Below, piece by piece: positions 13,342 through 36,039 of a stretch of DNA of 64,000 nt (position 1 is its first letter; each line of letters begins with the position of its first letter). Where the stretch lies: assembly GCF_035594765.1 (NCBI RefSeq), contig NC_085842.1:9361256-9425255 (forward strand), written 5' to 3'. Below the pieces are notes generated by a model. That model was not told the DNA's origin and made no database searches. It saw only the letters and a list, made by a program, of their open reading frames with translations. The translations under genes and the position numbers were made by a program. Source of the stretch: Anolis carolinensis (taxonomy: Eukaryota).

Positions 13342-13581
13342 TGTCAGGATCTCCAATCCTTGACATCTCTGCTCAGCGGACAAAGAACAGATGCCAGCCA
13401 TAAAGCAGGCCGGCCATAAAACATCAATGACCCTCTGGTATGTAAGAGTCCCTATATATGTGGCACAAAAGAAGGTTCTGGTATTCAGTACAATAAAACT
13501 TGTTGGAATCTACCCGCGTGTGTCTTGGTGCTTTCTTTGGAAGACAGACCCACAGCACAACTGGGAGAAGAGAACCTGACA
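13342..13581 (+). mobile_element. 3' LTR, 240 bp, preceded by a G-rich PPT
   Basis: TG...CA ends; G-rich tract at 13310-13337. Confidence 0.95.
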
Positions 13582-21157: not shown

Positions 21158-24100
21158 TTAGCCAGTATGTGTTCTCTGGTGCTTGTTAAGAGCTGAACTC
21201 TGAGTAAAACATTTTCCACATTCATGGCATTTATATGGCTTCTCTCCTGTGTGGCTTCTTTTGTGCATCACCAAGGCTGAACTGTCAGCAAAACATTTCC
21301 CACACTCCTGACATTGGTATGGCTTCTCTCCTGTGTGGAGTCTTTTGAGCCTCACCAAGGCTGAACTGGAAGCAAAACACTTCCCACACTCTTGGCATCT
21401 GTATTGTTCCTGACCTGTGTGAAATTTCTTGTGTTTCACCACACATTTTGCAGATACTTTCCCTTTAAGATGGCTTTTCCCAACATCAAGTGTCTTGTGA
21501 AGCACAAGTGCCACATTTTGGGTAAAACACTGCCCACATACATTGCATTTGTCGGGCCTTTCTCTGGCAGAACCTCCATCTTCTCTGTGGGCTTGCTGGT
21601 CTCGACGAAAGGCCCAGTTGTGTCCCAAATGCTTCCTGTACTTGGTGCATACATGGCTCTTCTCCCCGTTATCTACTGTGAAGAAGAACATAAACAATCA
21701 TTCCTCAGTGTGAGTCATAAAGACTCTAAGGACGTGGGATAAGGAGTGAATTGAAATGATCCTTAAAATAACACAGACATGGAGGAAAAGGAGATATACA
21801 TGTTGTCCTTTCCCCTCCCCTTGTTCAGTGAAGATGGACCCTGGTTGTCTGCCTGGAGCCTCTAAGAGAGAGATGAGTAACATACGCTCCAGAGGCTCCC
21901 TGTTGCTCAGCCCAGCCTGGTTTTTTATTCCGTCTCCTTTTCTCTGGGGAATGGATGCCTTTTCCCTTCACATCCAAATGCTTGCCTTTTTCTCTAGCTT
22001 TAGACTTTACCAACTACCACCCATTTCACCATCTTCCCTCCTTTGTAGTTCTCTCCCCCAATCCCAGTTCTCTTTTCCCATGCTCCCTTAATGTTTGATT
22101 TTTCCACTCCAACGTAGAAGATCCCATACCTAATTTCAGAGTACAGCAGAGTCTCGCTTATCCAACATAAACTGACCAGGAGAACATTGGATAAGTGAAA
22201 ATGTTGGATAACAAGGAGGGATTAAGGAAAAGCCTATTAAAGGTCAAATTGCATTATGATTTTACAAATTAAGCACCAAAGATCATGTTTTACAACAAAT
22301 TGACAGGAAAAGCAGTTCAATACATGGTAACATTATGAAGAAATCACTGTATTTACAAATTTAGCACCAAAACATAGCAATGTATTGAAAGCAGTGACTA
22401 CAAAAATATTTACTACTAAAAAATTGACTATAAATATAGAATTGCATAAAACAACACTGTTGGAAGTTAAATCCATAAAAAGTTCAGTCTTGTGAAGATT
22501 TTTTAAAATCTGTGACCCTTGCCTGCTTTTCCAGCGATTGCCATTTCTCCGCTGCCAAGTCTCGCCATCTTTGCGAGATCAACTTATTCCATTTCTTCTA
22601 TCCTTGCCGAGAATAGCTTCCTGCAATAGTTCCTTTTGAGCTCTTCCAAAACGCCCTGATCCATCGGTTGGCATATGACGGTTACATTCGGTGGCAGAAA
22701 CATCGCCTTCATGTCCCCCTCTTGAAGCTCCTCTGCATCAGGGTGTGTTGAGGCATTGTCTAGCAACAAAACCACTTTCCTGGGCAGGTAAATTTCCTTC
22801 AAAAATTCCTCCGTGGAAAGAACAAGTTCCTTAGGGCTGGGCTGTAGCACAACTGGTAAATCAACAGCAGTAATAAGATCCACCAACCGAAAGGTGGCCA
22901 GTTTGAAGCCCGGTCGGGGGTGAGCGCTCGACCTCCAGCCCAGCTCACTGTTTACCTAAGCAGTTCGAAAACAGTTTACAAGCTGTAAATAGAGAAATGA
23001 GGTAACGCAAATTGTGGGGGAGGTATTTTAAAACACCATAAAGAACAAGCCCAGAAATGCGGTGACCAAGAGGAAGGTGGAGGGAGGAAGTTCTGATGGC
23101 TCTTTGTCACAGAGAATGAAGCAACAGCACCCCTGTGACTGAATCTGAGCAGAACATCAGCCTCCAAGGCACCAAAAACCTGGACTTCAAGACTACGCAC
23201 CTCCTTCTGTTTGTCTTATTCTGTTCTGTCCTGTCTCCAAACAGCATTGAATGGTTGCCGTGTATGTGTATTGTGATCCGCCCTGAGTCCCCTTGGGGAG
23301 ATAGGGCGGAATATAATAGTTATTATAATAATAATAGTCTTTTGAACATTTCACTGGTCATCAACAAACTTTTTTGATTGTAGTATTTTACAGGAAGAGC
23401 ATTTTTTGAAACTGTTTTAAAGGCTCTTGGATTTTTGGGCTTCCCAATCATTGCGAGGTCCATTTTGTGGTTTGCTGTAGCACTGCTGCATGCTAACATT
23501 GTCAGCCTTTCTTTACTACGCTTTTAGCCTGGGGCTGCTGCTTCAGTTCTGGCTGCAAGACTCCTGCTCGGTAAAATTTTGCAATTGAGGCCAGTCTCGT
23601 CACAATCAAACATCTGATCACCCGTTAGGCTTTCAGTTTCAACAAAGTCTTGAATTTTTTTCCCTTCAGTTCTGGCTGCAAGACTCTTGCTCGGTAAAAT
23701 TTTGCAATTGAGGCCGGTCTCGTCACAATCAAACATCTGATCACCCGTTAGGCTTTCAGTTTCAACAAAGTCTTGAATTTTTTTCCCCTTGAATTTCTTT
23801 CTTGAATGCCTCTATTTCTTGAAAATTTGATGACAGCTTCTCACCACAAACACTTAACTGATGGATTCCATAACGTTTCTTCCACCTGTCGAGCCAATGC
23901 TTGCTGTAAAATCTGATTCCCCTTCATTAAATTCTTTTCGAAAACGCAATACCTTTTGCTGTAAAATAGGCCCTGAAATACACACACCTTTGTCTCTCAG
24001 CTGCGTAAACCAAACATACAAAGCTTCAATAACTTTTTCATAGTCACATTTTTCATTGTTTTCCTCTCTTTCAGCACACCATCGGTAACTTTGGAGAACA

Positions 24101-27100
24101 CCATTTTTCTATCTGCAATCGATTCCATTTCCATTCTCCTACTGCTACCCGTTCGACACCATAGTTGTTGGCTACCTTCTGCCTTGTCTCTCCTTTGTCC
24201 AGGTTTCTGCTCCATGGATCCAACGACCTTCTTTCTCTTCGTCGCCATACTCACGCAGAAGAAAGCACATGCACAGATCAGTGGCCCTCCTGGCAGGTGT
24301 CTGGTGCACAGAGAGACCCACTGTATGTTGCTGCCGAGAGAAACAGCCGTGGATCCCGGTGGGAGACAGACTGCGCCGGATGATACAGATACACTTCTCC
24401 CATCAACTGCCAAATGGGACTCTTACACTTTATGGAAGTTGGCTGTAAATATGAGTTCCAAAGGGATAGATTTGCCTGACAAAGCTGTGAACGTGCAAAA
24501 CCGTGACTGTAAAGAAAAGGTGGAGAACAATGATGAAGGCAGAAAAGGGAACAAAAAAGGGATGTCTGTAGGACTCGGCCAGATAGAGTGGCATCCACAT
24601 AACATCCCACGTGAGAGAGAAGAGACTGCCTCCACACCATCCCAGTCTGTGAGGAAGGACAAGACTGGACCAGAGGAAAGAGCTGCTGATCCATCTGTTG
24701 TGATTCAACCCCACGCTGCTCAAGTCTGCAGTCCCCAATGAGGAACAGGGAGCTAGTTTCAGAAGAGGCTGAGGGAATCCCTCCCCCTTGTCTCCTGATT
24801 GACAGTTGGGATGTATCTATTTGTTCTCTTCTTTCTCTTTCTTTCTCTCATTTCTTTTTCTCATTCTGATTGGTTTTGTAGAATGGTGCAAGATTTCTGA
24901 CTTTTATATCTCCGTGTGTGCTGTGTGCATTGAGACCTCTCTCTGCTTGTGTCTCAGGAGAGATGTAGGGCTTGGAATTTTCCCCTCCCTTTTAAACCCG
25001 AGAAGAGATGGAAACAGAGAGTAGCTCAGACCCAGTCATTGACTATTAAGAAATGTAGTTAGTGTTTTTTGTAAACACTGGGCTGTATGGCCATGTTTTC
25101 TGGGCTGTATGGCTATGTTTCAGAAGTATTCTCTCCTGATGTTTGCCTGCATCTATGGCAGGCATCCTCAGAGGTTGTCAGGTATATGGGAAAAACAGAT
25201 CTATAAACCTCACTAGCCTAGTTTCCAATATACCTCCCACCTCTCAGGATACCTGCCATAAATACGGGCGAAACGTTAGGAGAGAGGGGGAACCAGGAAG
25301 ACAGTTCCATCTTGTCTACTGTGCCATCAGTTGGAGGCCCAACTGATGCTCTGGGGCCCTCCCCCTAGTAACATGCTATGCTAATAATATAATATTTATT
25401 ACATATATATAGTGTATATAATGTACAATATAAAATACAGTAATATATAATATATTTGAGAGAGGGGAAATATGCTTTGACTCCAGTTATGGTAATCTTC
25501 CCACTTGAGTCTGAATTGGCACTAATGTTATATTATTATTATTGTTGTTGTTGTTACTCTTATGCCACATATTTCTGACATAAGCCCTGCCTTACAGACC
25601 CTCAGTGACTGTGATGATTTAGGATAATACTGCCTTTTGAAACAGAAATCCCCATCAGTGAGGGAGCCTTACCAAGAGAGGCCACAATCCCATTCATCTC
25701 CTCCATGATCTGCTTGTGCAAGGCTTTCTGGTCCGGATTCAGGAGAACCCACTCCTCCAGGGAGAAATCCACAGCCACGTCCTCAAAGGCGATTGGGCCC
25801 TGGCGGAAGAAGAAAAGATTCCCTTCTCACATGGGAGCGATCAAGAAAAAGAATAACAAGAAATTCTTTAAAGTAGATTTACATTCCTGTTGGTTGTTTG
25901 AAAGGGAAAGGGCCAAGGCCTCCATGCCACAGTTGTAAGCTTTCTAGAGATGACGGGTTGGTCAGTCAGAACCATTTCTCAATTGATACGTAGAATCAGA
26001 AATGGAATCTGAGCATGTTCCAGCCTTTATTGTGGTGCCCAGAACTGGACACAGTGTTGTTCCAGGTGAGGTCTCCCCAAAGCAGAAAGAAGGACACAAT
26101 ATTCCTTAGGATGGAGCCCAAAATCCCATAGTCCTTTCAGCTGCTGCATCACATTGTTGGCTCATGTTCCACTTGTAGTCCTCTAACACTCCAAGATCCC
26201 ATCATATGAATGACTGTCAAGCCCACCCTGTACCTGTGCATGGCATTTTTATCGTTCCTAAGTGTACTACTCTACATATATTCTTGTTGAAATTAATTAG
26301 GTTAGTTTTGGCCCAGCTATCCACCATGTTCAGGCCATTTTGAATTCTGATCCTATCTTCTAGACTGTCAGCTATACCTGCTAATCTGGTGTCATCTGAA
26401 AATATGATACGCATGTTGAGCAGTACTGGGCCCAGGACAGAACCCTGCGACACTCCACCCTTTGTCGCTCAAACCATTACAAATCCACCGAACAGGAGTA
26501 TTATCCAGCCCACTTTTTACTAGTTGTTTGTGAAACCATGGGAGGCCTTTCCAGAGGTCTTACTGAAAGCAAGATGTGCTACACCCACTGCATTTCCTTC
26601 ATCTACCAAGCTTGTAACTCTACTGAAAAAGAGATTAATCGGGCATGACTTGTTTTGGAGAAACCCATCTTGCCCTTCAGTGATTACAGCCTTTTTTCTA
26701 AGTGATTCCAGACGGCCTTCTTCATGATCTGCTCCAACATCTTCCCTGTTATTTAGGTCAAGATAACAGGCGACTTCAATGCAAGGGTAGGGTCTACTTT
26801 GGTAAATGTGTTGAGAGAAAAGAACCTGGATGAAGATCCCTTCAACTCCCTCCCGACACCTGAAGCCCGACACTCTAAGGACCAAGCGTGAAACCAAGCC
26901 GGAAAATGACGGACCAAAATGGCCACGCAGCTCAACCTGTCTCGGCTAAATGGACTTACTCAGTTTCCTGACTCTGGAGAATATACATTGGTCTCACCAA
27001 GGGGCTCTAGTGTCATAGACTATCTTCTGACTTCACCCTCCATAGCTAGCAACATTCATTCATTTGGTATCGACAATTCCTTGCTTAGAGATCGTTTCCC

Positions 27101-29890
27101 ACTTCCCCTTCCCCTGGTTTTGGAGAGAAGCAGCACTTCCCCACCTGGACAAGCCTACCCACAATACACTAGGCTGAAGCGGAACCTTAAGATGAAGGGG
27201 GTGTGCCTAGATATCTTGAACTCTTATGAAGTGTTGTCCATAGAAACTATGATCATTGAAATCCCAGATTTCAAGGAGGTGATCACCGGGTTTGAATCCC
27301 TTATAAAACCTTTCTTTTAAAAATGATACGATTGGCAAAGAATGCTGAGGCAACCCAGGGTCAGATCCAAAAATTGGTTCGATAAAGAGTGCATAATAGC
27401 AAACAAACAGATCTGCTCCCTCTATAACGATTATCAATCCACATCAAACGATCTCCTCCTTATAAAAATTTGAGAGTCTAAACAGCTGCTGCAACTGCTT
27501 ATGGGCCAGGTCAACATAACTGGATGGTCATTGTTAGGGGACCTCTTTTTGGTCCATTCTTGGAGATAGAGACAACCTTTGCCTCCTCCACCCTGCTGGG
27601 ACTTCTCCTGTTCCCAAAAATGAAGAAAGAGGATTGACAGTGGTTCTGGGATTACTACTCTTAGTTCAATTCTCTTGGGTGTAGTTCACCTGGCCCTGGA
27701 GACTTGGATTCATCGAGAGTGGCCAGGTATTCCTGGGCCACTTCTTTACCTATTTGGGGTTGCATTTCCCCAGTTGCTCCATCTTGCTCAGGAAGAATAC
27801 CCATTTCCTTTTGGGAGAAGACTGAGGCCATGTTCTACCTCTTCCCTATCCCTGGTTAGCATTTCACCACCTTCTCCAGGCACAGACCCTACTCTTGGCT
27901 CATTTCTTCTTCTGACCTCATTTTCTAATTTAGATTGTTAGACCTTTTCCCAACTTATGCAGGTTAGTCGTTTACATTCCTTGGTGACTCTTCCCCCTTT
28001 CCATTTCCTGTACATGTCCTTTTTCAATCTTAGCTCCGTTGAAATTTCTTTGAACATCCATTCTGGTTTCTTTAATTCTCTCTTCATTTTTTCCCTCCTT
28101 GTATTTCACTCCAAGATTTCACTTCTAAGGAAACACATTCAATCTTGTCAGTTTCAATAGATATTTGGCCATTAATCCTGGAACCAAAGGCACCCCGGCA
28201 GGCCCAGCCCTCCTCTCCCAGGAATCCTCCTGCTTACCTGACTCAGTCCCACTCCATCGCAAAGGGGGAGAAACGGCTGAGGATTCGGCCACAGCATCAT
28301 TCCAGACCCTGGAGAGAGAGCAAGGGGTGGAAAGCTGGTCACAGAAACAGGCCTCAGAAGTGACCATTGCAGTCCTATAAAGAGACCGATGAGGAAACGA
28401 CCCTAAGAACACAGGCGCATTCAACAGCCAATGAAGATGTACAATGTGAGGGATTAGGACTTTATCTCGCAAGCCCTGCTGTGAGGATGTTCGAGTGAAA
28501 CTAGCACTGGGCTTGGTGTTTGACTAAAGTGATTCTTTGTTGTCTGTTTGTCTTCCAGCTCAGTTTCAGGGCTTATCTTCACTTAGGGTCCCACCTGAGA
28601 AGACACTGAAGTCCTATTGCAAGAAAGAAAACTGCAAATCAAACTGAAGTCACACCTCTGGCAACCTAATGCCTACATATAACAATAACAATAGCAGTAG
28701 TAGCAGTAGTAGTAATAATAACAATAATTATTTCATTTTTACTCGCCTCTCCTTGCAGTTCGAGGCAGGTTACCACAAAATTTTAAAAACATGAACATTG
28801 CCAAAATTCAACAAAGATACCTATTTCTATAAAAGATACACATTAAAACTGCATTTCTATAAAATACATATTAAAGTCCATAAAACATCACACAAAGGAC
28901 AGGAGTTTAAGATATATACCCCTCTCAAGGCCAAATGATCCTGCGTGTTCATGTTCTGAAGCTCAAACTGTGGGTGTGCAATCATCCCCCAAAGTGGGAT
29001 TTCCACTGGCACAAACCCCCAAAACTCCCAGAAGAGTTCCTTCTCACCCTGCAAGGCAGCAGCCCCGTCTCTTTCCCGCTTCAGCTCCTTCTGCCTGAGA
29101 CTCTGGGTGGTGTCTGGTGGAGATTCCTCTGGTGCAGGGACTTCCATGGAGTTATTATTAGGGGCCTGGAAGAGCACAGAGCGTTCCAGAAGGAGTTTGG
29201 GAAAAGTTCAAAAATATCACAGACCTATAGACCTTTTTGGAAAGAATAACTCTGAGATGGGAACCTAGTTTGGAACCAATGCCCCCCTCCCCCTCCCATG
29301 ATTGTCTATGTTCTATCTTGAGCAGAGCATCAACCAAGCTGACAGTAGAGACGGAGGGGCAGAGCAGGTGGGGAAAGAGGCCGAGGGAGCAGGGCCTTGC
29401 TTATCCCCCACATCGGTCCCATCTTGGAAGAAAGGCAGGATGTACGTTCAACCTGTCCATCAGTCTCCAGGTTAGTGAAACCCAGAGGGAATGCTCTCAC
29501 CTGTCCTTCCTGCTCCTTGTCCTCGGCCCGACTCAGGAGGAAGCCTTCCGCCAGGGCCACCGCCTGGGAACAGGTCTCTGCCCCACACTCTCGGACCCAG
29601 CTCCCCATCTCTGGGGGCAGGATGCTCAGGAACTGCTCCAGGGTCACCAGGTCCAGCACCTCGGCCTTGGTGTGCTGCTCTGGCTTCAGCCACTGGCGGC
29701 ACAGATCGTGGAGACGACTGCAAACCCCTCGGGGTCCTTCACCCTCTTGGTAGGAGGACTGCCTGAAGCGCTGGCGCTGTGTGTCCGAGCTGTCAAGGTC
29801 CACACTCAGGGACTCATGTCTGGTTCTTTCCCAGGATTCCCCACTGCCCCCAGGTCCTGCTTCAGGCCCACGTGAGTTGGGTCTCTCCAT
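21158..29890 (-). CDS. SCAN-KRAB-C2H2 zinc-finger gene copy A; exons 29890-29501, 29165-29048, 28308-28238, 25799-25673, 21675-21158 (407 aa; 2 intact plus 2 degenerate fingers)
   Basis: All introns are GT-AG and phases are compatible (0, 1, 0, 1); SCAN and KRAB-A motifs present. Confidence 0.82.
22144..24290 (-). mobile_element. Degraded pogo/Tigger-like DNA transposon
   Basis: TIR-like ta-cagcagagtctcgcttatccaac; transposase pieces [17 protein letters not shown] and LLLDNA..HP..FLPPN.T...QPMDQG; internal ~120-bp tandem duplication at 23543-23785. Confidence 0.85.
22832..23337 (+). mobile_element. tRNA-headed SINE with L2-type 3' tail, nested in the Tigger element
   Basis: Head gggctgggctgtagcacaactgg; tail ccgccctgagtcccc...(taa)n; interrupts the transposase. 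Partial paralog at 45888-46770. Confidence 0.65.
25078..25285. mobile_element. Older PLE fold-back fragment with two decayed hammerhead motifs
   Basis: Homologous to 7819-8030; cores mutated (ctcagga; GAAA lost); not seen in copy B. Confidence 0.7.
25673..25799 (-). CDS. KRAB-A exon, 127 nt (copy A; not in the ORF track)
   Basis: cag|[42 protein letters not shown]|gtaagg. Confidence 0.92.
26010..26720 (-). mobile_element. Degraded CR1 RT fragments
   Basis: [22 protein letters not shown]; paralog at 49150-49900. Confidence 0.75.
26750..27480 (+). mobile_element. Non-LTR APE endonuclease fragment
   Basis: [10 protein letters not shown] at about 26763 and YT...G.SVIDY in ORF 26919; paralog at 49930-50650. 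Confidence 0.6.
29501..29890 (-). CDS. SCAN-domain exon (copy A)
   Basis: [51 protein letters not shown]. Confidence 0.93.
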
Positions 29891-30299
29891 GTTGGAACCA
29901 CTCTGGTGAAGAACCCAACCGTACCCAAGATGCTTTTCCTCCCTCTTCTTTCTTTCAAGGGAAAGAAATCCCTCCACAGGCTCTACACCAAAATTCTCAG
30001 CCAAAAATCACATTTCCTCTGTGAAAGAAAGGCAGAAAGGTTATGGGACCAGGCTTTTGAGCAATACTAGCAGCAGAAATGACAACTGTATGATCCAAGG
30101 TATAATGACAGACCCGGTTTGTACTTGAAATGCACCTTGAATGTTTATTTATATGTATATTTATGAAGGTTTGAATGTAATTTAATTTAAATGGAATTTT
30201 GAAATGTGATTGTAATTGTTTGATATATGTGTTTTATATTGTAATCCGCCCTGAGTCCCCTTGATGGGTGAGAAGGGCGGGGTAGAAATGTTGTAATAT

Positions 30300-31130
30300 T
30301 GTAATTTTGTTCATTTGTAATAAATGAACAAAAAGAAGACTCAACAATGACATGGTTCCATTATAATCGACTCCAAGAGAGACTCCGTCTAGACAACAAA
30401 ATGGGTAGACAAGAATTGGAGAATCAGCAGAACCAACTGCTACAGACAAAAGACAAGCCAATTGGGAAGCTACATCAATTTCTTCTGAAAGATTTTACAA
30501 TTGATGAAGAAATAAAAGAACCTATGATTCAGTGGGTGAAAACTCTAGGCTAAGCAATAACTCCATGAGAATGGGAAGAGCTCTAGTAAAAATGACTAAA
30601 ATTTACAAGGAGTCACACAATTAAATAAAATTTCAACAAAATGATACATAGATGGTACAAAACTCCAGAAAAACTCTCAAATACAGACACACACACACAT
30701 GTTGGGACTTGCCCAAAAGCTAACGAAATTCTGAATAAAAATCCACAGAGACATGGAAACTATTCTAGAGTAAAAAATCCTATTAAGACCAGAACCTTTT
30801 CTACCGGGAAACATCAAGAAAGACTCTTTCTTTATATGACAACAGAAGCAAGAACTGAATACGCAAAACTATGGAAACAAGAAGACATGCCAACACCAGA
30901 AAACTGGATGACAAAAGGTTTCGAAATGGCCAAAAAGGACAAACTAACTTCAGCTGCACAACAAACAAATACACAGAAACTTCAAGAAGAATGGAAACCC
31001 TTCATTGAATTCATAAAGAAGCAAAGGAAGATGGCCACGGCAGGATCTGTTGACTAAAATAGTATTCATAGTATACAGTTACATTTTGTACTATCTCTAA
31101 ACTCTTTATTCAAGAGACTTTGAATAATTG
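30300..31130 (+). mobile_element. Degraded L1-clade ORF2 3' fragment
   Basis: KMIHRWYKTPEKL, AR..YAKLWK, WKPF; paralog at 53340-54000. Confidence 0.6.
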
Positions 31131-31699
31131 CCCTATCAACACTCTTTGATTAGAATATAGAAGGTGGCAAGCCTCGTTAATTAGATATTTTAGAGCGACA
31201 CATATATAGAAACACATATTTGTGTAGTGTTGAAAGAAGAAAAGATGAAAATCTAACATAGTGAATTATCATCCAGACAATCCTAATTGACTAACCAATG
31301 GAGCGGATATTTGGGATCCATCTGGCAGTCGTGATGATGAGATGAAATGCCTGCAAAGAACGGGAAGAGGAGGCGGGAAGGAGGCCGGATCTCCTGGGAA
31401 GGCCAGAAGGTCCTGAGGAGAAGAGGGCGTTCGCTTCTGTCTCCGAGGCCCTGTGGATCTCCCCAACCCCGAGGCCATGTCTCTCATCCCGGGGCCTGGG
31501 CTGAAGAGAGGGACGTGAAGGCAAAACCAAGGCCAGGCCTCTCTCCCGCCCTCCCTCCCTCTTTCTTGGGATCACAGAAGACACGGAGACACTTCTTTCC
31601 TATTCTCAAAGAGACCTCCTTCGTTCTACAGCAGACCCATCACATTCACTCTTCCAAACAATCCTACCTTTCCTTTTGGCATCCAATGTTCTTTCCACC

Positions 31700-32570
31700 C
31701 TTCAAGCTGAGGTCAAGATTGGCCCTCAGGTCCCGGGAATGGCCGTTCATGGCGGAACGGCGAAGGAAAGGGCCGGGGGAGATTCTGCCCGGAGACGGAT
31801 GACGTCAGGGAGGGAGGCGGATGCCCATTGGCGGACCCTGGGCGTTGGGAAGAAAAGAAAGGAGGAGCGTCTCTCTCTGTCTAGAGCTCCGTTCGACGGC
31901 CGAGAAGCCCCGCCCCTCTCTGGGCATCGTGCCCGCGGCTGCCATGTTGAGCCCGGGCGGAAGTCCACCGAGGAGGGAGGCGTCTTCCTAGAGAGACTCA
32001 GGACGAGAGGCGCCTTTTCCTGTCAGAGCGAGCGCGGGAGGGAGAGGAAGGAGGAAGCGGAGGAGGAGGAGGAGGAGGAGGGGTGAGTGTGCGTGTGCGT
32101 GTTTGGGGGGGGGGCTGAGTGGGTCCCCGAGTCTCCCCCCGCGCCCCCCTCCGGCCTTGGCCTGCCTGGCCCTTCGCCTCAAGGCCTCCCTTCCTGCCTC
32201 CCTTCCTGCCCCCCCCCCCCATCTCCATCTCCATCTCCATCTCCACGCAGAGGCGCCTCCCGCTCCTTGGCCTGGCCCCCCCTTCCCCGCTTCACCCGGC
32301 GCTTCCTCGGGCAGCCTGCCTGCGATGAGGAGCGGGCCAGGAGAGTCCGGCCCAGGGCGAGTCTGCCCGGAGACGGGTGACGCGGAGAGACGAGGCCCAT
32401 TCCCATTGGCCGATTCCTGGAGTGACCGTTAACGGCAGAAGGGTGGAGCGGGGGGCGGGGCGGGGGCGTTCCTGCCCGGAGACCGATGACGCCAGAGAGG
32501 AAGGCGGATTCTCATTGGGCGTTGGGAGGAAAGGAAACAAGGGGCGTGTCTGCCCATTTTCCGCCGGGAA
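31700..32570. promoter_or_regulatory. CpG island, putative bidirectional promoter
   Basis: CpG-dense with GC boxes and three X/CRE/CCAAT modules; + strand donor GGG|GTGAGT at 32083; lies between the 5' ends of divergent genes. Confidence 0.75.
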
Positions 32571-33110
32571 TTAAAAACATGGATGTTCCAGAGCACGTTT
32601 GAATGAACAGGCCCAATACAGCTGGCATTAGAATGCTTCTCTCTGTTTTAAGGGCATACGGCACTTTATCACTCATTTCCATGACACAGCACTTTATGAA
32701 ACCTGTCCCCGCTGGTTGTTTTTAATTCTATGATTTTATTGCTTGGATTTTAATGTATTTATTATTTATTTTGTGAATCGTTGGAATGTTTTTGGTCAAA
32801 TGTCTTGTGTTGTTGTTTTCGGGCTTGTCCCTGTTGTAAGCCACCCCGGGTCCCTTTGGGGAGATGGGGCGGGATATAAAAATAAAGTTTATTATTATTA
32901 TTTATATTATAACAGATTTCATATGCAATAGGGTAACAGTGTAAATCAATGTTTCTCAACCAGGGGGTCGGGACCCCTGGGTAGGTCACGAAGGGGATGT
33001 CAGAGGTGTTGTCAAAGACCATCAGAAATACATATTTCTGATGGTCTTAGGAACCCCTTTGGCAGTCCTTGTGAATGTGATCAACAAATTCTCTGGTTAA
33101 TTGGGGACCA

Positions 33111-34790
33111 TTTTATTTATTTATTTATTTATTTTATTAGACTTGTATACCGCTACTCCCAGTTTGGCTCGGAGCGGTTTACAGAAATAGATTAAAACAA
33201 TACACTTAGCTTTAAATAAACAATAACAACAATAAAAACAACAATAAAAACAGACATAGCCCCGAGTTTTTCACCCATCGAAAGCTTGTTGGAAGAGCAA
33301 GGTTTTGCAGGCTTTCCGAAAGGCAAGTAGGTCTCGGATAGTTCGAGTTTCAACTGGCAAGGCATTCCATAAATGAGGGGCTACAATCAAGAAGGCATTC
33401 TTCCTAGTAGAAGACAAATGATAAGTCCGTATGTTAGGGATTTCAAGCAAATTTTGGTCTTCGGACCGAAGTAATCTCTGGGGTTGGTAGGGGGATAAGC
33501 GGGCCCTCAGGTACGCCGGCCCTAAACCATGTAAGGCCTTAAAGGTTAGTACCAGTATCTTGAAAGTAATCCGGTACTCAATCGGTAGCCAGTGCAGCTG
33601 TTGTAGAATTGGGGTGATACGCCACCTCACCGGCACCCTGGCGAGAAGACGAGCTGCCGCATTTTGCACCAGCTTCAGTTTCCGGATCACTGACATAGGA
33701 AGGCCAATGTAGAGGGCGTTACAGTAGCCGAGCCTCAAGATGACCGTCGCCTGGATCACCGTAGCCAGGTCGTTCCTAGATAGGTAGGGAGCCAGTCGCC
33801 TAGCCTGACGTAGATGGAAAAACGCAGATCTGCTCACAGCAGAGACCTGGGCCTCCATCGTGAGCAGAGGGTCCAATAAGACACCAAGACTTTTCACAGA
33901 AGATGACGGATGTAGTGTCTCGCCATCCAGGGTAGGCAGCTGCATCTCCCCCCCACCCGGACGGCCCAGCCAAAGGATCTCCGTCTTCGCTGGATTCACC
34001 CTCAACCTGCTGGCACGCAACCATCCAGTAACGGCCTCAAGGCACTGATGGAAACTATTGGGTACGGAGTCCGACCGGCCCTCCATCCTCAGAATGAGCT
34101 GTGTGTCATCAGCGTACTGGTGGCACTCAAGCCCAAAGCTCCGCACCAGTCGGGCAAGCGGTCGCAAATAGATGTTAAATAATAGAGGAGAGAGAATAGC
34201 TCCCTGTGGGACCCCACAAGTTAGTGGAGACCTCTCGGAAACCATCCCTCCCCTCACCACCCGCTGTCCCTGATTCTGGAGGAAGGAGGACACCCATTTA
34301 AGGGGTATCTCCCTAACCCCCATCATGGCTAGGCGATGGGTCAATAGATTGACCGTATCAAATGCTGCTGTGAGATCCAATAACACGAGCAGCGCTGATC
34401 CGCCTTGATCCCTTTGGCAGCGAAGCTGATCTGTGATGGCAACTAGCACAGTCTCCGTCCCGTGCCCCCTACGGAAGCCGGACTGGAAGGGATCAAGTCC
34501 GGCTGTGCGATTGAGGAACTGCTGCAACTGTTCCGCTGCTGCCCTCTCAACCACCTTGCCCAGAAACGGAAGATTCGAGACTGGGTGATAGCTAGAGGAA
34601 ACCGAACGATCTAAGTCTGGTTTCTTCAGCAGCGGAGATACCATCGCCTCTTTTAAACCCTCTGGAAAAACTCCTCAAGGGAGCTATTTATTATATTCAA
34701 CAGAGGTTCACGTAATCCCTCCAGGCAAGATTTTACTAGCCAGGAGGGACGCGGATCGAGGGAGCAGGTGGTCGGCCTAGTTGCAGTCAT
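33111..34790 (-). mobile_element. 5'-truncated L2-clade LINE
   Basis: ORF 33271-34644 with QSGFR, PQGAILSP and YADD; (TAAA)n tail at 33111-33137. Confidence 0.92.
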
Positions 34791-36039
34791 CTGGTGGCAC
34801 AAGCTATACCTGGTACTACCCAGATGACAGTCAGAAGCATCATCTTTAGCACATAATTTTAGTTCGAGCCACAACATTGTCTCCTGTGCAAAAGCAAACT
34901 TTTGCCTTTATTTTTCCTTCATTTACAATGTAATGTCTTCCTGTCCTTGTTGCCTTTCTATGAATCTGCTGCAGTTTGCCAATGTCCTTTCTAAAATGGA
35001 CTGAACTGAGCAGAACTGGGCAGGAATCATGTCTCCCACCCAAGGGTGCTGTTGGAGTGCAGAAGGATCTGGAGGGCAGCAGGATTCCCACTCATCCTGG
35101 GGGTCTATCCATCTGTCTCCTCTATACCGCCTTCTCTCATGTACTGCTGCTAGGCTGAGTGCCTTGGCTCTGGCTGAAGTTACATACCTTTGTGGTATAG
35201 GTTTTGTAAGAATGCAGTATGTCAAGGAACTTTGTGGCCTAATGTGCTCTCAGTGTCTCCAGGCGCCTTGCTTTAGAAACGTGGGGCAGGGATCACGCTG
35301 CAGGGAAAGAGAGGATCAGGAAAATATCTTTTTCCCGAGTTGGGAGAAATCTACACAAGAAAATGAAGTATTTTTCTCCCAAGACTGATCACTTGGGATA
35401 GTCTGTCCATACAGATGGCCACTCAGGTTTTGAGTGGAGATGTGAAGAAGCGGGATCTAGGTAGGAAATGCTTTGCATCGTTAGCCCCTTTCCGTGTTGA
35501 CCATATTATTAGAGGCCTTCCTTTACCAAGGTTGGATTAGACACAGGATCTTAGGCCGCTATCCCCTTTGCAGGGATTGTTCTTTGTTGGGCAAGTGTTA
35601 AAGTGCTTCTCAGCAGGCAACGGGCTCTTACCAGTTGGGCCAGTCTTTCTCCCCTCTTCCCCTGTGATTGCTACAGCACTAGGCTATTGTTCTTCATGTT
35701 CAATGAGATCTTTCTGTACTCTGCTCCTGATAAGATTTTCCTCTTATTCATCTCGCAGGTAACCTCTAAACGAACCTTATGAAGAAAACATTGCCCTTTG
35801 CCTTACGTCTGAAAGGAAAGTACGCAGGATTAACAAGAACAAGAAATAAATTGGAGAAATTATATTTCAAGCTACATACCTTTGAATGTAAGGAAAGGAA
35901 GGATTGTGCTGTAAAAAGAGGGGTTGGTAAAGAGAAAATAAGGCTACAGCAATACAGAGACTGGGAAGAGGAAATGTCCTATTCAGGAGTCCATATCTGT
36001 GAACTTCAGGCATAATATTAGAATAATAAATGTTAAAAA

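What the first reader, a model, noticed from the sequence alone, without database searches (positions are those of the whole stretch)
31785..32518. Fixed-spacing 47-bp X-box/CRE/CCAAT module repeated five times in the zinc-finger promoters (MHC X-Y enhanceosome-like)
Seen: CTGCCCGGAGACnGrTGACG-N22-ATTGG at 31785-31831, 32363-32409, 32472-32518, 56096-56142 and 56200-56246. The motifs and the exact 22-nt spacing are kept while the spacer sequence drifts. Known: MHC promoters use X1 (RFX), X2 (CREB/ATF) and Y (NF-Y) boxes with constrained spacing to recruit CIITA or NLRC5. Inference: these KRAB/zinc-finger gene pairs may be co-regulated by an RFX-CREB-NF-Y platform, possibly immune-inducible. 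The spacing appears about 2 nt longer than in HLA-DRA as I recall it.
Basis: partly seen in the sequence, partly recalled or inferred. Interest (0 to 1): 0.7.

Follow-up and report, generated by a model that had tools for sequence, protein, structure and literature searches.

The report
MHC-style switch in lizard zinc-finger promoters
A 47-base DNA module that closely matches the X1-X2-Y control element of mammalian MHC immune genes is copied five times in two duplicated promoter regions of zinc-finger gene pairs in an anole-like lizard, where it likely acts as an everyday RFX/CREB/NF-Y on-switch rather than an immune-inducible one, because the MHC S box is missing.

Summary
Observation confirmed: five exact copies, none in 100 shuffles. 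They sit in CpG islands between head-to-head SCAN-KRAB-ZNF (minus) and ZNF-only (plus) genes whose best protein hits are Anolis carolinensis. The copies are tandem and segmental duplicates, not independent sites. All 22 motif columns are invariant against 7 of 22 spacer columns (p about 1e-5), but the fixed 22-nt length alone is expected by descent (P 0.12-0.39). Read contigs give weak support for a spliced first exon 117 bp away and for further tandem copies elsewhere. Most likely a constitutive RFX5(or RFX7)-CREB-NF-Y promoter platform spread with a zinc-finger family; XY boxes at non-MHC and ZNF promoters are known in human. Binding and induction are untested.

The parts
31785..31831 (+). 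XY module B1 (X1 12 nt, N3, X2 here a full palindromic CRE, 22-nt spacer, Y box); lies between the first exons of the minus- and plus-strand genes
32363..32409 (+). XY module A1, first of a tandem pair (period 109 bp), downstream of the predicted plus-strand first-exon donor
32472..32518 (+). XY module B2, second of the tandem pair
56096..56142 (+). XY module A2, first of a tandem pair (period 104 bp) in the paralogous promoter; 19 of 22 bases match H2-K X1-X2
56200..56246 (+). XY module B3, second of the pair
31718..31722 (+). Lone Y box plus homologous linker (31723-31784): remnant of a sixth, A-type module whose X1-X2 is gone
   Evidence: 40 of 66 columns identical to the A-B linker
31501..32750 (.). 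CpG island of promoter 1
   Evidence: 500-bp windows, GC>0.55, CpG o/e>0.6
56001..56500 (.). CpG island of promoter 2
31668..31691 (-). 3' end of the first exon of the minus-strand SCAN-KRAB-ZNF gene 1 (donor after 31668, joined to 30018); 5' end not determined
   Evidence: joint 30018-31668 with CT..AC ends, 1 contig of run X11, 24 letters on the short side; donor word
29333..30018 (-). SCAN exon, gene copy 1
   Evidence: (PF02023, E 2e-35)
25659..25802 (-). KRAB exon, gene copy 1
   Evidence: (PF01352)
21161..21697 (-). C2H2 exon, gene copy 1 (2 canonical fingers by strict pattern; shortened relative to copy 2)
32080..32088 (+). Predicted splice donor of the plus-strand gene's first exon (GT at 32083); not confirmed, reads were skipped at this repeat
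36037..37935 (+). C2H2 array (21 canonical fingers) of plus-strand gene; no KRAB/SCAN found upstream
52451..53125 (-). SCAN exon, gene copy 2; best hits Anolis carolinensis 94-99%
48792..48935 (-). KRAB exon, gene copy 2
   Evidence: tblastn, 98% to copy 1
43619..44914 (-). C2H2 exon, gene copy 2 (11 canonical fingers)
55888..55896 (-). Predicted splice donor of the minus-strand gene 2 first exon (second candidate at 56051-56059); untested
56442..56450 (+). Predicted splice donor of the plus-strand gene's first exon in promoter 2; untested
60972..62141 (+). C2H2 array (13 canonical fingers) of the second plus-strand gene

Best explanation
The module is an X1-X2-Y box, duplicated with its genes, that likely binds an RFX5-type complex, CREB/ATF and NF-Y together and likely gives steady, CIITA/NLRC5-independent activation of the shared promoter of each head-to-head SCAN-KRAB-ZNF / ZNF gene pair. 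Shown: the sequence match to published XY boxes, the order and orientation of the boxes, their conservation against a drifting spacer, the CpG-island position between divergent zinc-finger genes, the duplication history (one module, tandem A-B pair, segmental copies, a further local copy with loss of one X1-X2), and the absence of an S box. Inferred: which proteins bind, cooperative binding on one helix face, and constitutive output.
For: X1 is a one-half-site X box, the type described for RFX5 and RFX7 (passages of PMC8287911 and PMC11344851). Copy 56096 equals H2-K X1-X2 at 19 of 22 bases (by eye). In the Scharer 2015 table the 12-nt X1 word is identical at the NDUFS5 peak and differs at 1 of 12 at PSMB9 and HLA-DQB1; the C19orf81- and SBK2-annotated peaks have the same N22 layout (part 1 of 8, by eye); 20 of 105 model rows have the same length 50. 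22 of 22 motif columns invariant vs 7 of 22 spacer columns. RFX5, CREB1 and NF-YB co-occur at 4975 human sites against 480 CIITA peaks, and most non-MHC CIITA-bound genes did not depend on CIITA; RFX5/NF-Y partnership is described as widespread. No S box, G-rich upstream flank, no ISRE or kappaB word found by simple patterns in either promoter; GC boxes in both, YY1- and ETS-like words in promoter 1 only (patterns recalled). A minus-strand spliced first exon ends 117 bp from module B1 (one contig). Weak hint: in run X10 summed contig depth is 7359-11240 over the module bins against 42-108 in bins 30479-31657, while X1 and X18 show 71-284 there, as a promoter-enriched library would give.
Against: No binding or expression experiment exists here. 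Scharer 2015 reports that high motif quality plus length 46-50 marks CIITA-regulated genes and that most of the 4975 co-bound sites score poorly; this module looks like a high-quality one (not scored), which favours some CIITA response. Fixed spacing is not significant among related copies. The library type of X10 is not on record, the runs were found with the promoter-2 stretch, and the tool warns that summed contig depth ranks nothing. The splice joint rests on 1 contig with a 24-letter side at 80% likeness and may come from a paralogue. Start sites were not determined. RFX7 cannot be told from RFX5 by sequence.
Confidence: 0.58

Rival explanations
1. The module is a working MHC-type enhanceosome that recruits CIITA, so that these zinc-finger genes are modulated in antigen-presenting cells or by IFN-gamma, as reported for human ZNF672.
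For: Near-identity to H2-K X1-X2 and to CIITA-bound human sites; length 50 is inside the 46-50 range of CIITA-regulated genes, SBK2 and PRR14 being 50; W-box-independent CIITA sites exist; ZNF672 and TRIM26 are CIITA-bound and reduced in CIITA-null cells.
Against: No S/W box or pyrimidine tract in 5 of 5 copies; MHC-II promoters are 47-49 long; ZNF672 was not rescued by CIITA in the later study (Group II); of 17 ZNF-named peaks among 480, only 2 score well, 14 score under 2 and 1 has no motif. NLRC5 in particular needs its own S box.
Confidence: 0.17
2. The X1 box is read mainly by RFX7-ANKRA2 next to NF-Y, which would make the gene pairs p53/stress-responsive.
For: RFX7 binds the same one-half-site X box near CCAAT boxes, shares sites with RFX5, NF-Y and CREB1, and activates proximal promoters (passages).
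Against: [quoted passage not shown]
Confidence: 0.1
3. The three words are conserved as separate sites (CRE, CCAAT and a 12-nt site for RFX1-3 or an unrelated factor such as a zinc-finger protein of the cluster), and the 22-nt distance is only inherited.
For: P(no indel in the spacer) is 0.12-0.39 by descent alone; a lone Y box survives at 31718 without X1-X2; the invariant X1 run is longer than the RFX half-site core.
Against: X1-N3-X2 register, orientation and Y distance all fit an independently published XY model; X1 is not a two-half-site palindrome of the RFX1-3 type.
Confidence: 0.13
4. The copies are non-functional repeats (recent duplicates or a transposon terminus) and the MHC likeness is chance.
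For: The region is a young segmental duplication, 6-7% diverged in introns.
Against: Motif columns invariant, CpGs included, while the spacer takes 19-21 substitution steps; in runs X1 and X18 module bins have depth 71-284 against over 21000 at true repeats; the LTRs in the window lack the module.
Confidence: 0.02

Closest known systems
MHC class I SXY module (mouse H2-K; RFX5-CREB/ATF-NF-Y, NLRC5)
   Same: X1-N3-TGACG register, 19 of 22 bases with copy 56096, same order and orientation, C-rich end before the Y box
   Different: TGACG-to-ATTGG distance 22 vs 20; no S box; G-rich upstream; tandem copies; sits in bidirectional zinc-finger promoters
MHC class II W/S-X1-X2-Y module (HLA-DRA; CIITA)
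   Same: Three boxes in the same order; X1 differs at 1 of 12 from the HLA-DQB1 site
   Different: Length 50 vs 48 (MHC-II range 47-49); no W/S box or pyrimidine tract
Non-MHC XY boxes in human (ZNF672, TRIM26, RAB4B, peaks annotated C19orf81 and SBK2)
   Same: XY box outside MHC genes, including at a zinc-finger gene; identical N22 layout at two peaks
   Different: Here multiplied in tandem and across a paralogous SCAN-KRAB-ZNF family of a squamate; no binding data
RFX7-ANKRA2 X-box plus CCAAT promoters (PDCD4, MXD4, RFX5)
   Same: One-half-site X box near a CCAAT box at a proximal promoter
   Different: No fixed X2/CRE or spacing rule in the passages read; p53 link untested here

Membership tests
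MHC SXY enhanceosome module | X1 box of RFX5 type (one half-site) | tested here: met
   10 of 12 to H2-K, 11 of 12 to HLA-DQB1 and PSMB9, 12 of 12 to the NDUFS5 CIITA peak (by eye)
MHC SXY enhanceosome module | X2 (CRE half-site) 3 nt after X1 | tested here: met
   5 of 5 copies; same register in H2-K
MHC SXY enhanceosome module | Inverted CCAAT Y box downstream, same orientation | tested here: met
   5 of 5 copies, NF-Y-like flanks
MHC SXY enhanceosome module | Constrained X-Y distance | tested here: inconclusive
   Length 50: inside 46-50 of CIITA-regulated genes and 20 of 105 model rows, outside 47-49 of MHC-II; constancy among copies not significant
MHC SXY enhanceosome module | S/W box upstream of X1 | tested here: not met
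   The ACCT core that ends 13 nt before X1 in H2-K and H2-E is absent at that place in 5 of 5 copies; ACC(T/C) occurs only at offsets 24, 37 and 38 in 2 copies. A lizard S box could differ from the mouse one.
MHC SXY enhanceosome module | Pyrimidine-rich tract 5' of X | tested here: not met
   1-4 pyrimidines in the 8 bases upstream; feature named in PMC2278383
MHC SXY enhanceosome module | Cooperative binding of RFX, CREB/ATF and NF-Y | not testable with these tools
   No ChIP or binding assay available
MHC SXY enhanceosome module | CIITA or NLRC5 recruitment and dependence | not testable with these tools
   No perturbation data
   No genome held; no MHC gene among the ORFs seen; anole MHC paper places it on chromosome 2 and has no 'zinc', 'ZNF' or 'finger' in its main text
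Palindromic X box of RFX1-3 | Two half-sites in inverted repeat | tested here: not met
   Only the 3' half resembles the consensus given in PMC11344851 (by eye)
Transposon/LTR-borne promoter | High copy number, part of a repeat element | tested here: not met
   Low depth in X1 and X18 relative to true repeats; not in the window's LTRs; no repeat library was available

The most novel reading that the evidence does not exclude
An expanding lizard SCAN-KRAB zinc-finger family has carried a near-MHC-class-I XY enhanceosome, doubled in tandem, into each bidirectional promoter, placing a family of putative transposon repressors under CIITA / interferon-gamma control and so wiring genome defence to the antigen-presentation programme without an S box.
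Probability: 0.13. Interest if true: 0.65.

Novelty: new member of a known kind. Interest (0 to 1): 0.32.

Why it matters
It shows the MHC-type XY box, known mainly from mammals, as a selected promoter element in a squamate zinc-finger cluster, and offers a natural series of paralogous modules (A and B types, one half-deleted) for testing spacing rules and S-box independence. If the genes proved CIITA- or interferon-responsive, it would tie a KRAB/SCAN zinc-finger expansion to immune signalling. If constitutive, it is ordinary promoter architecture of a kind already seen at thousands of human sites.

Tried and rejected
No whole genome is held, so the genome-wide composite scan and synteny test could not be run. 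Metagenome scan with a free 15-30 nt spacer: 10 loci, spacers 15-29 (1 of 10 at 22), CpG o/e 0.81-1.3, long open frames, no blastn match to the window; read as prokaryote-like chance hits. Viral scan: 0. Rfam: 0 matches in the window. Tandem Repeats Finder on 31000-33200 finds only microsatellites, not the 104-109 bp period. Run search: no RNA holder listed on record. The published XY model was compared by eye and by its length columns only; no PWM score was computed. Pfam was given 63 reading frames: 9 long ones and 54 picked from the 256 shorter ones listed; the KRAB/SCAN gap was closed by tblastn with the window's own domains. A weak Toxin_18/dUTPase hit (E 0.006-0.008, below cut-off) was ignored. 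PMC2191754 and PMC11266202 gave no usable promoter sequence. Three of four look-ups of earlier findings were empty. Independent origin of the five copies, a transposon origin, an RNA element and a palindromic RFX1-3 site were considered and rejected as above.

Full report
Observation. The pattern occurs exactly five times, at the stated coordinates, all on the + strand, and never in 100 shuffles. No other copy was found by looser patterns or a 5-mismatch scan, apart from one unrelated hit.

Setting. The window is a vertebrate zinc-finger cluster. The SCAN exon's best hits are Anolis carolinensis proteins at 94-99% identity, then A. sagrei and other squamates (best 120 of 605 listed). Self-comparison shows a segmental duplication: 25473-31700 matches 48600-54607 and 1-3807 matches 34119-37936. 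Each unit has a minus-strand SCAN-KRAB-C2H2 gene head-to-head with a plus-strand C2H2-only gene. The modules lie in the two CpG islands between them. In promoter 2 an A-B tandem pair (period 104) lies between predicted donors at 55893 (minus) and 56445 (plus). In promoter 1 a B copy (31785) lies between a minus donor at 31667 and a predicted plus donor at 32083, preceded by a lone Y box at 31718 and a homologous linker; a second A-B pair (period 109) follows at 32363-32518.

Are the motifs selected? The spacers are homologous, so the copies share descent. On a five-leaf tree the 22 motif columns take 0 changes, the 22 spacer columns 19-21 and the 12 upstream columns 10-12; cores only, 16 of 16 vs 7 of 22 invariant, p 1.1e-5; the 12-column invariant run has p 0.008 under column shuffling. 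This points to purifying selection on protein-binding sites.

What is it? I compared it with published sequences rather than recall. The H2-K SXY primers in PMC4374748 (methods passage) match copy 56096 at 19 of 22 bases over X1-X2, with 20 nt to the Y box against 22 here. The XY-box model of PMC4381081 (supplement file 5 whole) measures HLA-DRA as 48; this module is 50; lengths in the 105 rows are 45:5, 46:8, 47:15, 48:32, 49:23, 50:20, 51:2 (from the printed coordinates). Rows 57, 93, 94 and 97 have the same CCAAT-N22-CGTCA-N3-X1 layout (by eye). In the peak table (part 1 of 8) the C19orf81-annotated peak (score 32.8, all five data sets) and the SBK2 peak have N22, and the X1 word is identical at the NDUFS5 peak (which scores -2.08 overall) and 1 base off at PSMB9 and HLA-DQB1. 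So it is built like an MHC X1-X2-Y box. It lacks the S box and the pyrimidine tract, so I do not file it as a full SXY module.

How does it work? By the established model (passages of PMC1802633 and PMC4381081) RFX binds X1, CREB binds X2 and NF-Y binds Y cooperatively. The S box is reported as the determinant for NLRC5. CIITA can bind without a W box, but most non-MHC bound genes did not depend on it, and RFX5/CREB1/NF-YB co-occur at 4975 sites against 480 CIITA peaks; RFX5-NF-Y partnership is called widespread (PMC4889920 passages; PMC7793273 passages). Of 17 ZNF-named CIITA peaks only ZNF672 and ZNF429 score well. I therefore put a constitutive platform first (0.58). Against this, quality plus length 46-50 marked CIITA-regulated genes in that study, and ZNF672 is a zinc-finger precedent (PMC2278383 passages), so CIITA modulation keeps 0.17. 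RFX7-ANKRA2 reads the same half-site X box beside CCAAT (PMC8287911 and PMC11344851 passages): 0.10. Separate sites with inherited spacing: 0.13.

Read evidence (weak). The search with 55850-56560 listed 24 runs, 18 holding it, none on record as RNA. Four were laid on 29300-33200 at 80% likeness (contigs only; tables cut). X11 has joints 30018-31668 and 31349-31667 with CT..AC ends, i.e. minus-strand introns ending at a first exon 117 bp left of module B1; each rests on one contig. X10 has about 100-fold more depth over the module bins than over 30479-31657, X1 and X18 do not; the library is unknown and the tool cautions against ranking by depth. Back-going joints at 31832-31834 and 32518 carry three sets of between-letters that, by eye, follow none of the six Y boxes of these promoters, which suggests more tandem modules elsewhere in the genome.

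Novelty. Searches for a report of this element found none: RFX5, NF-Y, CREB, zinc finger genes, spacing: 0 papers; 0; listings only; no title on a reptile XY box; 'lizard' absent from all 15 listed. The library is limited to open-licence papers. Supplements of the RFX7 and anole MHC papers and parts 2-8 of the CIITA peak table (beyond the ZNF search) were not read and might hold zinc-finger targets or map positions. The names YY1, ETS, GC box, ISRE and kappaB for the scanned words, and the transposon-repressor role of KRAB proteins, are recalled.

Verdict. Real, selected, correctly recognised as an XY box; new member of a known kind; immune inducibility unshown and disfavoured by the missing S box. 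Interest 0.32.

Noticed in passing
window 31200-31700 vs 54111-54607: This stretch beside promoter 1 is 22% diverged from its paralogue (6-7% elsewhere), with 79 sites G/C here and A/T there against 11 the other way (p 8e-14; 20:18 and 84:78 elsewhere). Fits promoter-proximal GC-biased gene conversion or A/T decay away from the promoter; PMC5519329 (passages) could not detect PRDM9 in the green anole.
   Followed up: partly
window 31663-31671 vs about 54570-54590: The first-exon donor used in unit 1 has no intact counterpart in the homologous sequence of unit 2, whose predicted donor lies at 55893: the two paralogues appear to use non-homologous first exons.
   Followed up: partly
window 7702-13581: Young LTR retrotransposon (gag- and pol-like frames by eye, not run through Pfam); the aligned LTR parts are 100% identical, an imperfect 5-bp target duplication flanks it, the paralogous site near 40900 is empty, and the left LTR is interrupted by a 213-bp palindrome at 7818-8030.
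   Followed up: partly
window 21161-21697 and 1910-3893: The minus-strand zinc-finger exon of unit 1 keeps 2 canonical fingers against 11 in unit 2; the array at 1910 changes frame (19 + 4 fingers).
   Followed up: no
window 36037-37935, 60972-62141, 1910-3893: The plus-strand partners appear to be long C2H2 arrays with a very short N-terminus and no KRAB or SCAN domain.
   Followed up: partly
window 33274-34674 (-): LINE-type reverse-transcriptase fragment (PF00078) in the first intron of the plus-strand gene.
   Followed up: no
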